NCBI GenBank assembly: GCA_964016885.1
Contig: OZ024743.1
Span: forward strand, 121,210,001-121,274,000
DNA length: 64,000 bases
Source: Eledone cirrhosa
Lineage: Eukaryota
Direction: 5' to 3'
Shown: positions 8,715 to 45,406 of the stretch, piece after piece
How the letters are laid out: every line of letters starts with the position of its first letter
Position numbering within the stretch: the stretch's first letter is position 1
Notes under the pieces: model-generated
What the model was told of the DNA's origin: nothing
The model's input: only the letters and a program-made list of their open reading frames with translations
Database searches by the model: none
Position numbers and translations under genes: made by a program

Positions 8715-8808
8715 ACCCCTTGAGAAGCTCGGCTATTTATATACCAGGATACATTTTTATTTAGTCCAGAATTAGCCGTCGAAACGGCTTGAGCTCAGCC
8801 GTCGGGGT
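8715..8808 (+). ncRNA. Type I hammerhead ribozyme, U3-A8 core variant
   Basis: ACCCC-TTGAGAA-[helix II CGGCTA/TAGCCG, long loop]-GAAA-CGGCT tgagctc AGCCG-TC-GGGGT. Confidence 0.75.
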
Positions 8809-11169
8809 CTAACTGGTTCCTATATGTATATATATATATAATATATATATGTATATTCATATACGTATATATATATATATATATATATATATATATATAT
8901 AAATTTATAAATATATACATATATATATATATATATATATGTGTGTGTGTGTGTGTTTGGAATAATATTTATAAGAAAGTTACGAAACGATAATTTATTG
9001 GTTCCCTTATAGACACTGTTATAAAAATACCTCGTTTGTTTAATGCGGTTTCCTTTCAATAGTTTTTGTCTTTATATTTCCCATACCATTCGCCTACTCT
9101 TCTCATATTTGTCCAAATCAGACTGTAAGAGATATAAAGACAATTTACCGATCAACAAACACTTCATTTTATTTTACTTTTTAATTTTTAATGTTTTATT
9201 TATTCTGTTTTAACTGCGTCTGATTATATACAAAACAGCAACGTAGTTCGCTAATAAATTATTTATACATTTCCCTATCTCTAACTATGTATTATTTCTT
9301 TTTCGTTCTTTCTATTTGTCTTTCTATCTTTCTCCCTTTCTATCTATATTTCTGAATCTATATTGATTAAGTTTTTACACAAAACCAACAGCTGCTTATT
9401 TTATCTAAATGCCTTGTGATATCATTACTTTTCTGTAGATTCCAATTTTATCAATTGACAACAGTTCTATTAGCCTCCTATTCCTACTAGCGTGAACTTC
9501 AATTGAAATTTCTTAATTGAAAATCGTTGAAGCCAATTCCACATAACATAGATTACTTCATATATTAGAAAATTAGTTCTTCCACCAATGCAGCAGTAGT
9601 AGTTTAAATAAAACCAACTAGATACAACTAAGAGGATACAATATCCTTACATGGAGGTGGTGCTTAAGCTGTATTAATATTTATTTCAGGAAATATAGCC
9701 ACTCAGAGAATTTGTTAGATAATGTATGCATATTTCAGTTAGGAGGAATAGAATGTCTGTAGACATATTATTGTGTTGTTTTGGTTGATCTCTATTGATT
9801 TGCTGGTTTACTCTCCACAAAAGTACATTAGTGTTCAGAAAATCTGAGCATTCATATATGGTGCACACGCACAGACACATACGCACAAACACACACACAT
9901 GCATACATATATACATGCATGCATACATATATATATATGCATGCATGCATACATATATGTATGCATATATATATATATATATATATATATATATATATAT
10001 ATATATATATATATATATATATATATATATATATATGGATAGATAAATATATATAGTGGTGGTGGAACAGAAGTTAAATTCTGATATGATGCTATGATGC
10101 TTTACTCTATTCACTTTACAGTATATTCCACCCTGACTTTATAGTATATACTATGTGTGTGTGTGTGTGTGTGTGTGTGTGTGTGTGTGTGTGTGTGTGT
10201 GTGTGTGTGTGTGTGTGTGTGTGTGTGTGTGTGTGTGCGTGCGTGCGTGCGTGTGTGTGCGCACGTGTATTGTGGGATGTGTATGCATTTTCTAAAGTTT
10301 AAAGCAATGAGATGAGCACAATAACGATTAGTCTTCACCTTTCAGAGTCAATATCCTGATGGTAAATAACACAAGCCACAGCCTGTTATAAACAACTGTA
10401 TGTAAACTAATTCAAATAGAAAGAATCTCTTACAGAACTCTAACATTGTGCAACAAATATATGTATTTCCTGAAATCCTTTTAGTAGAGATAATCTAATG
10501 AGTCAAATGTAGTAATCCTATGTTTTTAATGTCAGCAAACACTTTCCATATGAATTGATTCGTACCGATACAAAATGGCATTTGAGTTCTCGAATTACAA
10601 AATATATCACTGTTTACATTTCATCAGAACTAAAATATGTAACATAGATCTACTTAATAGATTTATTTCACAATGTTTTCACAAAGCAAAATCAGCAACG
10701 CACACTCACGCATATATATATATATATATGGGGGGGGGGGGTGTATGTGTGTGTGTGTGTATATGTGTGTGTATGTCTGTGTGTGTATATATATATGTGT
10801 GTGTGTGTGTATGTATATTTATATATATGTGTGTGTGTGTGTGTATATATATATATATATATATATATATATATATATATATATATATATATATATATAT
10901 ATATATATATATATATTATATATATATATATATATATATATATATATATATATATATATATATATATATATATATATATACACACACACACACACATATA
11001 TATATATATATATATATATATATATATATATATATATATATATATATATATATATATATATTATATATATATATATGGGGGGGTGTATGTGTGTGTGTGT
11101 GTGTATATGTGTGTGTATGTGTGTGTGTATATATATATATATGCAAAATCATCGGACACATTTTGTTTT

Positions 11170-12655
11170 GACTATAGTGAGAACTCGTTTAGCAAGAGAA
11201 AAAGCAAAAGTAAACATTGCAATGGCGTAGAAACTAAAGATATCAGTGATTTAAGAAATTTAATTAGTGCTTCAGGATTTCTGGTGAGTGAGCGATTAGG
11301 TATGAAGGAAACAAGAAATGAAGAAATGTAAGGAACCCTGATATAAGAGAAGATTAGAATGTGATATAACATAGCTCGGAAAATATCCACGTAAAATGGA
11401 TGGATGCATGGCAGAGAGGAAAATAGAAAAAAGGGTAATGTAGGGTAGAAATTATGCCTGGACATGAGGTATAAAATAAAGTTAAAAAATTCGAATGAAG
11501 AAGACGAACCAGCATATGAAGTCGAAATCTACTCGTATTAAGTACCATACAAGTAGACAAAATAATACGAATAGGACTGCAAATCAGAAAATGTTCTTTA
11601 GAACACTGTTTGGGGAAAATAGTGTTGAACTTGCACCAAATGCTGAAGAATTCACATAATTTTGTTTAAATCTATGGGGAATTACAAAGGAGTATAACAA
11701 AGATGCGAGATGGATAAATGATATTGAGAATAAATTATCTAATGACCCAAAACAGTTATGGGAATGAATTTCAAAGAAAGACTTTCAAGGCATGTTAGAA
11801 AAGTGGCAAACTGAAATTCTTCTTGACCGGAGAGGATACGTGGATTCTGGTTGAAAAAATTTAGAAGTTTTTGGAAGCACCTAACTGAGGAAGTTCCATG
11901 TTGGAAGGTTGAAGGGAATGCAACTTTGATAAAATGAAAGGTTCGTTAGTTACGCATTACAGACCAAATACGTGCTTGAACGTGTTTTGCAAGCTGTTAA
12001 TAAGCATATTTAACACAGAAGTGCATGAACACTTTCTTCGAATTGAGATACTACCTGTCGTGTAGGAGGGATGTAAGAATATTTCTCAGAGATCCAAGGA
12101 GAATCTTGCTATTTACAACGCGATCATGAATCATTGCAAAAGACATCTAAGGAATTTAAGCATGGTTTGGATACTTTAAGAAAACCTTTTTCATGGCCCC
12201 ACATTCATGGGTACCGAAATGTTTCAGAAAGTTTTCAAAAGCAGATTAAGTTATTTATTTTATTTATGTAATGGAGTTTAGCAAGCGTTTGTGGAATATA
12301 AACCTGTATGCAAAATGAAAGCACCTATGTGTGGTTATTATAAGAAGAAGACTATTTCAAGTAGATTTATTCTCACAATTGCTCTTTGTGACCAACATGA
12401 TTCCATTGTCAATGATGGTTGACAGATATGAGATTTAAAATATAGGACCTAAGAGCAATCATCTACTTGTCAGGGATAATCTAAAGCTCCTTGGAAAGAA
12501 TGAATCTCGGGTTAACTCTCTAGTTAGAATTATTTACAGGTGCTATATAGACACTAGGATTGAGTTTGATATTGCAAAGTGTATCACTCTGATTCTTAAA
12601 AGAAGTAGGCATGTACGTAGTTGTGGGATTGAATTACCTGATGGAGAGTCAATAC
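11170..12655 (+). pseudogene. Heavily decayed R4/Dong-like LINE RT fragment
   Basis: Remnants of NQKMFFRTL (about 11583), YRPxTCL (about 11958), W...PHSW (about 12165-12210), LFQ.D..SQLLF (about 12350) and DNLKL (about 12475). Many stops. Confidence 0.7.
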
Positions 12656-43825: not shown

Positions 43826-44266
43826 ATAATGGTTTCTGATTTAGGCACAAGGCCAACAATTTTGCGGGAGGGGAAAGTCGATTAAATTGACCCCAGTACG
43901 TGACTGGTACTTTATTTTATCAACTCCGTAAAGCTGAAAGGCAAAGCTAACCTCGGCGGGATTTGAACGCAGAACATGAAGGGATGTAACTATATGCCGC
44001 ACAGCATGTTGTCCGACGCTATACTGATACTGCCAATCCACCGCCAATAATGATTTCTAGTATAGGCACAAGGCCAGTAATTGGGGGGGGGGGTCGGAAA
44101 GTCGATTAAATCGACCCCAGTGCGTGAGAGGTACTTCATTTTATCAACCCCGCAAAGATGTAAGGCAAGCTAACCTCAGCAGGATATGAACACAGAACAT
44201 AAAGGGACGTAACTATATGCCGCACAGCATGTTGTCCGACGGTCTCCCGATACTGCCAATCCACGA
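43826..44266 (-). mobile_element. SINE tandem dimer (long form)
   Basis: Two reversed copies. Confidence 0.9.
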
Positions 44267-45039
44267 CCAATATTAAATGCAACTACTCCAAAATACAGCA
44301 GCACGTATGATTCGAACGGACAATCAACTGGCTATTACCAATTTCTCTACACAACCTACCACAATTGCTTTATCAATAGAACGGTCCAATCAATCGAGCT
44401 ATCTCGCTTCTAATGCTTTGACCACAGAGATTAGGAAATACTTTGCAACACAATCTCACACAAACTTTTAGAACCATGTAATAGATAATGAGTTGCTATA
44501 ACTCCGATTAACTGGTTTTATGCTATGAGAAGACGCAACGCTTCTATTACGAAAGGATGAATCCTCGATATGTAAACATAAAGGTAAATTATATGTATTT
44601 TGATAAATACAGCTTTTGATAATAGAGGACCAAAAGACTGTTAATTCTTTTAATTCAAAACATACAGTGCATTAATATACAGACGAGAAAACCATATATT
44701 CTCGCCTGTTTTCAAGTCCAGATGTCGCAAGAGTGGGAGGGATCGTCCGGATAAGAACCAGTTAAGTTCGAAATGCATCGACGATTGTCCCCCTTGCTTC
44801 TGTTGGGCAGAACCAGAGGGCGATAGCCCCGTTGTTTTGCATAGCTACGGCTTTCCAAATGTTTATATATAAACATACCATATTTTTTTAAAATACGAAA
44901 TTTCAATACATGTAAGTGTATATATATATATATATATATATATATATATATATATATATGTATATATATATTGAGTTAAGAACTCAGAGTAGTCTCTTAC
45001 AATTAAATAACTCTAAGAAAAAAGCTTTTCCGAGCCGTA

Positions 45040-45406
45040 CAATATAATTGAATAAACAAGAGAGATGAACACTAATATAAACATACATGTGTTCGAATTG
45101 TAAGGACCAAATTTGCTAGGGTGAAAAAGTACTAACTACAGCAATATGGTTTGTTATCCTGAGAAACTTGAGAACTTCACTAAATGTGTTGCGAAACGGT
45201 CTCCAATACTGTCTAGTTGTTATCAGGCGTTTTTACCAATATAGGTCTGTTATTTTTCTTAAATGTTCTTAATTTAATATTTAAAGTTAAGGATAACAAA
45301 CCTTATTGCTGTAGTTAGTATTTTTTCACCCAAGCAAATTTGGTCCTTACGATTCGAACACATGTATGTTTATATTAGTTTTCATCTCTCTTGTGTATTC
45401 AATTAT
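45040..45406. mobile_element. Fold-back cassette with a degenerate U3-A8 HHR in the spacer (45165-45218, plus)
   Basis: 45042-45160 is the inverse of 45290-45406. Spacer reads AAC-TTGAGAA...GAAA-CGGT ctccaat ACTG-TC. Confidence 0.7.

What the first reader, a model, noticed from the sequence alone, without database searches (positions are those of the whole stretch)
8715..45218. Recurrent U3-A8 compensatory core variant in several HHR families
Seen: TTGAGAA (8720), TTGAAAA (24438), TTGATAA (28918), TTGAAAA (41748-41754, minus) and TTGAGAA (45168) replace CTGANGA while helices and GAAA..TH are kept. Established: C3-G8 is a tertiary Watson-Crick pair in the active HHR fold, and U3-A8 is a known functional natural variant. 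Inference: the double change recurring in about four families signals selection for catalysis. Standard CUGANGA scans would miss these copies.
Basis: partly seen in the sequence, partly recalled or inferred. Interest (0 to 1): 0.72.

Follow-up and report, generated by a model that had tools for sequence, protein, structure and literature searches.

The report
Penelope hammerheads repeatedly swap core pair
Four of the five flagged motifs are end pieces of Penelope-type jumping genes carrying a predicted self-cutting RNA with an already published U-A swap in its core, and across this animal genome that swap appears to have arisen several times and always as a matched pair, which likely reflects selection to keep the fold although cutting was not tested.

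Summary
All five 7-mers are at the stated positions. Four (8720, 24438, 28918, 41754) are true U3-A8 cores of type I hammerhead motifs, and U3-A8 is the family-wide state. 45168 is misassigned: its family has a canonical CUGAGGA core that this fold-back copy has lost. The motifs lie in pseudo-LTRs of Penelope-like retrotransposons (Hydra-type for 8720/28918, Neptune-type for 24438/41754). In 864 kb of untargeted DNA, 107 of 145 copies are C3-G8, 33 are U3-A8 and 5 are other. Of 38 families, 26 are C-G, 12 U-A, none mismatched. Endonuclease trees need three switches among Hydra-type and one among Neptune-type families; one U-A clade is rejected (AU p about 1e-47). The window's four loci reflect about two origins, not four. 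In one U3-A8 family, 5' junctions are about five-fold enriched at the predicted cut site, suggestive of cleavage in vivo. U3-A8 is in print (Perreault 2011; about 1,300 copies in Schistosoma Penelope elements, Cervera 2014), and this scan noted it before in at least 21 genomes. I found no published mapping of recurrent origins. Cleavage is untested.

The parts
8715..8808 (+). Family E type I hammerhead motif, U3-A8 core at 8720-8726, predicted cut after 8803; 3' end piece of a Hydra-type Penelope-like element
   Evidence: family linked to an RT/GIY-YIG ORF 1.15 kb upstream at three loci; 12 of 14 copies U3-A8
24433..24480 (+). Family C type I hammerhead motif, U3-A8 core at 24438-24444, CCGG palindromic helix III, weak helix I, predicted cut after 24475; Neptune-type element end
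   Evidence: 7 of 7 copies U3-A8; ORF linked at L270, L271, L273
28913..28989 (+). Family A type I hammerhead motif, U3-A8 core at 28918-28924, predicted cut after 28984; this copy has a deletion of about 19 nt in helix II; Hydra-type, sister of E
   Evidence: 185 genome matches; first 100 listed: 92 T/A, 4 T/G, 2 A/A, 1 T/C, 1 T/T, 0 with C3; 3' UTR linked to EN at L012 and L244
41722..41757 (-). Family D minimal type I hammerhead motif, U3-A8 core at 41754-41748, CCGG palindrome, predicted cut after 41725; left arm of a head-to-head palindrome 41658-41930; Neptune-type
   Evidence: 87 of 89 copies U3-A8; 4.7-kb tandem unit with RT and GIY-YIG
41830..41865 (+).
45161..45221 (+). Core-less remnant of a family B (C3-G8) hammerhead: loop II, GAAA, helix III and 3' strand of helix I; the 7-mer at 45168 is loop-II sequence, not a core
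   Evidence: inverted arm 45042-45160 matches 45290-45408
16921..16975 (-). Comparator: canonical C3-G8 hammerhead (family f21), with mirror copy whose core starts at 17110 on +
26239..26273 (-). Comparator: canonical C3-G8 hammerhead (family f1); a second copy has its core at 33006 on minus
26599..26626 (-). Comparator: canonical C3-G8 hammerhead (family f11); a second copy has its core at 62508 on +
33729..33779 (+). Comparator: canonical C3-G8 hammerhead (family J)
54282..54320 (-). Comparator: canonical C3-G8 hammerhead (family f13)
14644..14684 (-). Family V hammerhead-like motif, C3-G8 with A at position 4; second copy at 15939-15979 on +

Best explanation
The four valid motifs are type I hammerhead-shaped sequences in the pseudo-LTRs of Penelope-like retrotransposons, and their U3-A8 core is inherited from master elements in which the C3-G8 pair was likely replaced by two compensating transitions several times independently, likely because the element RNA is under selection to keep a cleavage-competent fold. 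Shown: the family-wide state, the link to RT/GIY-YIG ORFs, no mismatched family among 38, and the minimum number of switches on the trees. Inferred: C3-G8 is ancestral; the path ran through a U3-G8 wobble (two transitions, favoured in a 34% GC genome); the ribozyme cuts tandem precursor RNA to set the 5' end of unit-length transcripts, as a dimer where helix III is only a palindrome (C, D) and as a monomer where it is long (A, E). Most genomic copies, including those in this window, are dead 5'-truncated or fold-back insertions that decay neutrally.
For: Family table: 12 U-A and 26 C-G families, none mismatched; no C3-G8 copy among 287 copies of U-A families and no U3-A8 copy among 280 copies of C-G families. 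Hydra-type EN tree (24 rows, 223 columns): 3 changes, 2 forced by well-supported branches, 0 of 200 bootstrap trees with one change; AU test rejects one U-A clade, p=1.2e-47. The hammerhead of family U (U3-A8) aligns along helices I and II and loop II with those of its EN-clade relatives S and S2 (C3-G8), so that switch happened in place. Neptune-type elements hold both states (D, C, C2, X are U-A; W is C-G) and need one more change. Mismatch rates at 3 and 8 in U-A copies (2.5%, 4.0%) equal background for T and A (3.3%, 3.4%), as expected for decay after insertion. Family D 5' junctions on contig C1, my hand tally of the 100 rows listed (46 distinct junctions): 19 at 0 to -2 from the predicted cut, 10 at +3 to +5, 17 spread over -3 to -19; 17 independent events in 4 positions against 17 in 17, p=5e-5; one example read in full starts at the cut. 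Literature: U3-A8 covariation is natural and was shown active in vitro in other hammerheads (PMC3088659 section 8); single 3/8 mutants kill a Penelope hammerhead and the double partly rescues it (PMC11167929 passages).
Against: No cleavage assay and no RNA data. Four switches are few: three independent contrasts cannot be significant by a sign test, and the family-level Fisher p (4e-10) ignores relatedness. Several ORF links rest on one locus (M, P, T, f10, W, X, C2), and nested insertions at (TA)n misled three first links. Families F, G, H, C3, B and others could not be placed on a tree. Swapping of pseudo-LTR modules was excluded only for U against S. Families U, V, W and X were spotted by eye, which favours recognisable cores. 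No cut-site pile-up was seen for A, E, B, f1, J or f21 in my loci. The control is biased against TA flanks, and A/T microhomology could enrich junctions at the D cut site. The fixed 3' ends of insertions lie downstream of the cut (+81 in D, +22 in A, +18 in E and C), so the copied template was uncut at its 3' hammerhead. In the anole element, hammerhead mutants did not affect insertion in vitro and no RNA reads ended at the cut. MFE folding does not favour the hammerhead fold over shuffles (z from -2.0 to +1.1).
Confidence: 0.72

Rival explanations
1. The 3-8 pair is kept because the fold is recognised by the element's protein or organises the reverse-transcription start, and strand scission itself is dispensable.
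For: Hammerhead mutants of the anole element still insert in vitro, and its cleavage is protein-assisted (PMC11167929 passages). Insertions span the uncut 3' hammerhead. Some abundant families carry position-4 changes (A4 in V, C4 in R, S, Q, G) and C has a weak helix I.
Against: G5, A6, A9, GAAA and U-H are kept in essentially all families, and H17 is A, C or U in the motifs printed. D junctions pile up at the predicted cut.
Confidence: 0.14
2. U3-A8 arose once or twice and was spread among elements by exchange of pseudo-LTR modules (template switching), so recurrence on the protein tree is not recurrence of the mutation.
For: These elements form fold-backs, tandems and nested insertions constantly. 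A, E, H and F share a similar architecture (helix III with a palindromic loop). Hammerheads are too short for a reliable tree.
Against: The U hammerhead is homologous to its C3-G8 relatives S and S2 and unlike A/E, K or D. A/E, K, U and D/C differ in all three helices.
Confidence: 0.1
3. The U3-A8 cores are chance double decay (C-to-T and G-to-A) of dead canonical copies in an AT-rich genome.
For: Both changes are the commonest transitions, and the 7-mer occurs 85 times in the window. One of the five sites (45168) is indeed a chance look-alike.
Against: U3-A8 is the majority state of whole families (266 of 287 copies); single-change classes are 1-2%; no U3-A8 copy occurs in C-G families. Young families with intact ORFs (D) or 98% identical copies (H) carry it.
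Confidence: 0.02

Closest known systems
U3-A8 minimal hammerheads of Schistosoma mansoni Cercyon Penelope-like elements (Cervera and De la Pena 2014, PMC4209133; parts 1-2 of 4 of the text read)
   Same: Same core covariation, same location in pseudo-LTRs, missed by the standard descriptor, mostly single truncated copies, some in close inverted pairs.
   Different: About 1,300 hits there, against roughly 1e5 extrapolated here from 33 copies in 864 kb of C1-C4. Here it occurs in 12 families of two other clades, some with full helix III. That paper, in the parts read, does not map independent origins.
Natural U3-A8 hammerheads (Perreault et al. 2011, PMC3088659; section 8 and passages read)
   Same: C3-G8 covaries to U3-A8 in several natural ribozymes; such pairs were shown active in vitro in an earlier study that I could not open.
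   Different: Scattered examples, not retroelement families with a phylogeny.
Hydra-clade Penelope-like elements (Craig et al. 2021, PMC8557442; section 11, passages and supplement part 2 of 59 read)
   Same: C-terminal GIY-YIG, CxCX5C linker, DKT motif in relatives, (TA)n targets, hammerhead downstream of the ORF; an octopus member is listed.
   Different: All 26 Hydra hammerhead rows in its File S2 have C3-G8 cores; A/E, K and U here are U3-A8.
Neptune-clade Penelope-like elements (features as given in PMC8557442 passages)
   Same: Family D protein has DKG, a CX4CxxC linker finger, RT and GIY-YIG, in a 4.7-kb tandem unit.
   Different: The hammerhead core is U3-A8 in D, C, C2 and X.
Non-LTR retrozymes (Cervera and De la Pena 2020, PMC7229834, passages; Li et al. 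bioRxiv 10.64898/2026.07.22.740005, abstract and one passage)
   Same: Family H (not in the window) is a 593-595 bp tandem unit with one hammerhead per unit and no ORF found.
   Different: H has a U3-A8 core. Neither main text contains the word octopus or cephalopod.

Membership tests
Type I hammerhead ribozyme | Core N3-U4-G5-A6-N7-N8-A9 ... G12-A13-A14-A15.1 ... U16.1-H17 with a Watson-Crick 3-8 pair | tested here: met
   Met at 8720, 24438, 28918 and 41754 with U3-A8; not met at 45168, whose core is lost
Type I hammerhead ribozyme | Helices I, II and III around the core, G10.1-C11.1 closing helix II | tested here: met
   Met at family level for A, E, C, D; helix II broken in copy 28918; helix I only 2 contiguous pairs in C; helix III is a CCGG palindrome in C and D
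Type I hammerhead ribozyme | Match to an Rfam hammerhead model | tested here: not met
   No match at gathering score in the window and none at E up to 10 at 8720 or 41754; the canonical copies in the window are missed too, so the models do not cover these forms
Type I hammerhead ribozyme | Loop I - loop II tertiary contact | not tested
   Not analysed
Type I hammerhead ribozyme | Site-specific self-cleavage after H17 | not testable with these tools
   No assay; only indirect junction enrichment for family D
Penelope-like element pseudo-LTR hammerhead | Lies downstream of an RT plus C-terminal GIY-YIG ORF | tested here: met
   D: many loci, Pfam RVT_1 (just under cut-off) and GIY-YIG; C: 3 loci; E: 3 loci; A: 2 loci
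Penelope-like element pseudo-LTR hammerhead | Tandem or inverted arrangement, fixed 3' end with optional tail, microsatellite targets | tested here: met
   4.7-kb tandem of D; palindrome 41658-41930; fixed ends followed by (TA)n or tail
Hydra clade (A, E, K, U) | CxCX5C linker before the endonuclease | tested here: met
   Seen in translations of A, E, K, U
Hydra clade (A, E, K, U) | DKT motif in place of DKG | tested here: inconclusive
   Seen in the relative L073; the fragments held for A, E, K and U do not reach that region
Hydra clade (A, E, K, U) | Placement with reference Hydra proteins in an RT tree | not tested
   No reference proteins were put in the trees; clade names rest on motifs
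Neptune clade (C, D) | DKG motif and CX2-5CxxC linker finger | tested here: met
   Both in D; finger in C, which is 57-59% identical to D
Neptune clade (C, D) | Placement with reference Neptune proteins, excluding Nematis | not tested
   No reference sequences used

The most novel reading that the evidence does not exclude
This genome holds a natural mutagenesis panel of hammerhead cores: about half a million copies in dozens of Penelope families, in which the catalytic 3-8 pair flipped from C-G to U-A at least four times with no mismatched lineage ever amplifying, while other very abundant families tolerate A or C at position 4; and the U3-A8 ribozyme of family D cuts its RNA in the animal, leaving insertions that begin exactly at the scissile bond. 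That would be direct evidence that cleavage is a selected step of Penelope retrotransposition in vivo.
Probability: 0.4. Interest if true: 0.62.

Novelty: new member of a known kind. Interest (0 to 1): 0.4.

Why it matters
Whether the hammerheads of Penelope-like elements do anything in vivo is open: the one reconstituted element inserts without cleavage. Repeated compensatory switches of a pair that matters only in the catalytic fold are evolutionary evidence of constraint, and matched close relatives (U against S, D against W) give ready assay pairs. In practice, CUGANGA descriptors undercount hammerheads here by about a quarter, more if position-4 variants are included. The variant itself is not new.

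Tried and rejected
Rfam scans gave only AT-repeat microRNA noise and no hammerhead (216 weak rows were not shown). My first strict descriptor missed all five sites. A U3-G8 'intermediate' family was suspected from one copy and rejected: in the 72 matches, U3-G8 is a small minority beside U3-A8. Three ORF links made from single loci (f1 to L109, H to L249, C to the Hydra-type EN in L271) were nested insertions at (TA)n and were dropped. The family G row and position rates were off by one base and were recomputed. RNA search: no RNA holder listed; no reads were laid. MFE folding is uninformative for these motifs, and one of the 11 stretches folded (L133:3195-3255) was not the hammerhead. Cut-site pile-up was not seen for A, E, B, f1, J, f21, f4, G or K in my loci, was unreadable for V (simple repeat in the query) and was not run for H and F. 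Five rows were left out of the Hydra tree as short or badly broken (N2_L142, A_L012, L131, Q_L265, L345). Papers not held: Przybilski and Hammann 2007 and Nelson and Uhlenbeck 2008, so rate data for U3-A8 and the wobble come only second-hand. Literature searches for prior reports; none showed octopus U3-A8 hammerheads or a tree of 3/8 switches. Subscription papers, bioRxiv supplements and the supplementary figures of Cervera 2014 were not seen and may bear on this.
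Full report
Setting. The window lies at G000:C4:121210001-121274000 in a 3.0-Gb animal genome rich in TA microsatellites. It is probably an octopod; this rests on my recall of the ~205-bp repeat and on an earlier scan note, and I did not check it.

Observation. The five 7-mers are where stated, but TTGANAA occurs 85 times in the window, so only context counts. Genome searches with each site showed the families. Family A (28918): 185 pattern matches with positions 3 and 8 free; of the first 100 listed, 92 are T/A and none has C3. 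The window copy lacks about 19 nt of helix II. Family E (8720) is a sister subfamily with compensated helix II and is intact. Families C (24438) and D (41754) have short helices and a CCGG palindrome in place of helix III; a pattern for this class gave 19,588 matches against 309 in the control, mostly family D among the 100 listed. Site 45168 fails: family B has a canonical CTGAGGA core upstream in 27 of 29 copies, and the window copy lost it at a fold-back junction.

A descriptor blind to positions 3, 7 and 8 on 864 kb of untargeted DNA gave 36 C-G, 16 U-A and 1 G-G, with 3 hits in the reversed control. Homology-based collection in the same DNA gave 107 C-G, 33 U-A and 5 other of 145. Over all loci held, 38 families: 12 U-A (11 with three or more copies) and 26 C-G (18 with three or more), none mismatched. 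Copies of U-A families are 266 of 287 U-A with no C-G; copies of C-G families are 269 of 280 C-G with no U-A. Many loci were targeted, so these totals are not genome proportions. Departures at 3 and 8 in U-A copies occur at background rate. The copies therefore decay neutrally and only reflect their master elements; selection has to be judged between families.

What carries them. Family D sits 1.05 kb behind the stop of an RT plus GIY-YIG ORF in a 4.7-kb tandem unit with DKG and CX4CxxC motifs, i.e. Neptune-type by the features in PMC8557442. C is linked to a related ORF at three loci. A and E are linked to ORFs with the CxCX5C linker of the Hydra clade. Reading downstream of other endonuclease ends gave further families of both states. 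Family H is a 593-595 bp tandem repeat without a detected ORF, like a retrozyme.

Recurrence. On a tree of 24 Hydra-type linker and endonuclease sequences, the U-A label (A/E, K, U) needs 3 changes, 2 of them forced by well-supported branches. Holding the seven U-A rows together is rejected (p-AU 1.2e-47); labels were set from the hammerheads before the tree was drawn. U and its C-G relatives S and S2 have homologous hammerheads, so that switch happened in place. Among Neptune-type elements D, C, C2 and X are U-A and W is C-G, which needs one change. The minimum is four changes if both clades began as C3-G8, which I infer from the canonical state and the 26 C3-G8 Hydra rows of Craig et al. File S2 (itself limited by its descriptor). 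The direction of single changes is not fixed by an unrooted tree. The window's own four sites amount to about two events. Only U-A was seen as an alternative pair, never G-C or A-U, which fits a two-transition route through a U-G wobble (inference); no family with a wobble consensus was found.

Is it cut? There is no direct evidence. Following a lead from an earlier scan note, I looked for insertions that begin at the predicted cut. For D, 175 copies break within two bases of it; the control four to six bases upstream gave 39 but excludes TA flanks by construction. A fairer listing (my hand tally of 46 junctions on contig C1) has 19 at 0 to -2, 10 at +3 to +5 (mostly fold-backs) and 17 over the next 17 upstream positions, about five-fold enrichment (p=5e-5 after merging duplicates). 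One example read in full begins at +1. This fits an RNA 5' end made by cleavage, but A/T microhomology is not excluded, and my loci show no such peak for A, E or the C-G families tested. Insertions end at fixed points downstream of the cut, so the 3' hammerhead of the template was uncut or re-ligated. In the anole element, single 3/8 mutants abolish cleavage and the double mutant partly restores it, yet cleavage is not needed for insertion in vitro (PMC11167929).

Comparison and verdict. U3-A8 is published as a natural covariation (PMC3088659) and specifically in Penelope-element hammerheads of Schistosoma, with the remark that the usual descriptor missed it (PMC4209133). The scan's own index holds 85 notes with these words in at least 21 genomes. 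My six paper searches showed no report for this animal group and no phylogenetic count of switches. The finding is a real new set of members of a known kind, with one of five sites wrong and a sound but unproven inference of selection for catalysis. The addition is the tree-based evidence of repeated compensatory switching and a tentative genomic mark of cleavage in one family.

Noticed in passing
window 14644-14684 (-) and 15939-15979 (+); family V, L111 and L247: Very abundant Hydra-type family (17 copies in 864 kb) whose hammerhead-like core has A at position 4 (35 of 36 copies) with C3-G8 kept; I found no paper on a natural U4A core in one search.
   Followed up: partly
L071, L275, L080, L265, L341-L370: Families R, S and Q have C4 with C3-G8; family G combines U3-A8 with C4 in 10 of 29 copies, probably an ancestral C4 decaying at a CpG.
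   Followed up: partly
L319-L322 (G000:C12, about 26.60 Mb): Family H: young 593-595 bp tandem arrays with one U3-A8 hammerhead per unit, retrozyme-like.
   Followed up: partly
L073, L241-L243: Recently active Hydra-type family: many copies with an identical endonuclease domain and 830-aa open frames, 6.4-7 kb tandem unit, microsatellite-rich 3' UTR of about 3.7 kb, and a C3-G8 hammerhead with a loop II of over 100 nt.
   Followed up: partly
window 45042-45408; L031-L060: Family B looks like a short circularly permuted unit with a canonical hammerhead, often in fold-back form; no ORF linked.
   Followed up: no
window 1-1809 (-): Open frame of 603 aa with the start of an RVT_1 domain, a non-LTR retrotransposon fragment running off the window.
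   Followed up: no
window 24725-25143 (+), 56817-57238 (+), 59308-59535 (-): Broken fragments of Penelope-like ORFs, not linked to the flagged hammerheads.
   Followed up: no
window 57777-59008, 21538-22502, 31676-32596, 54047-54645: Long inverted repeats (257-544 nt arms); the first contains a 25-nt tandem array and may be a foldback element.
   Followed up: no
window 5601-6102, 29974-30394, 43825-44272: Tandem dimers of a 204-223 bp SINE-like repeat.
   Followed up: no
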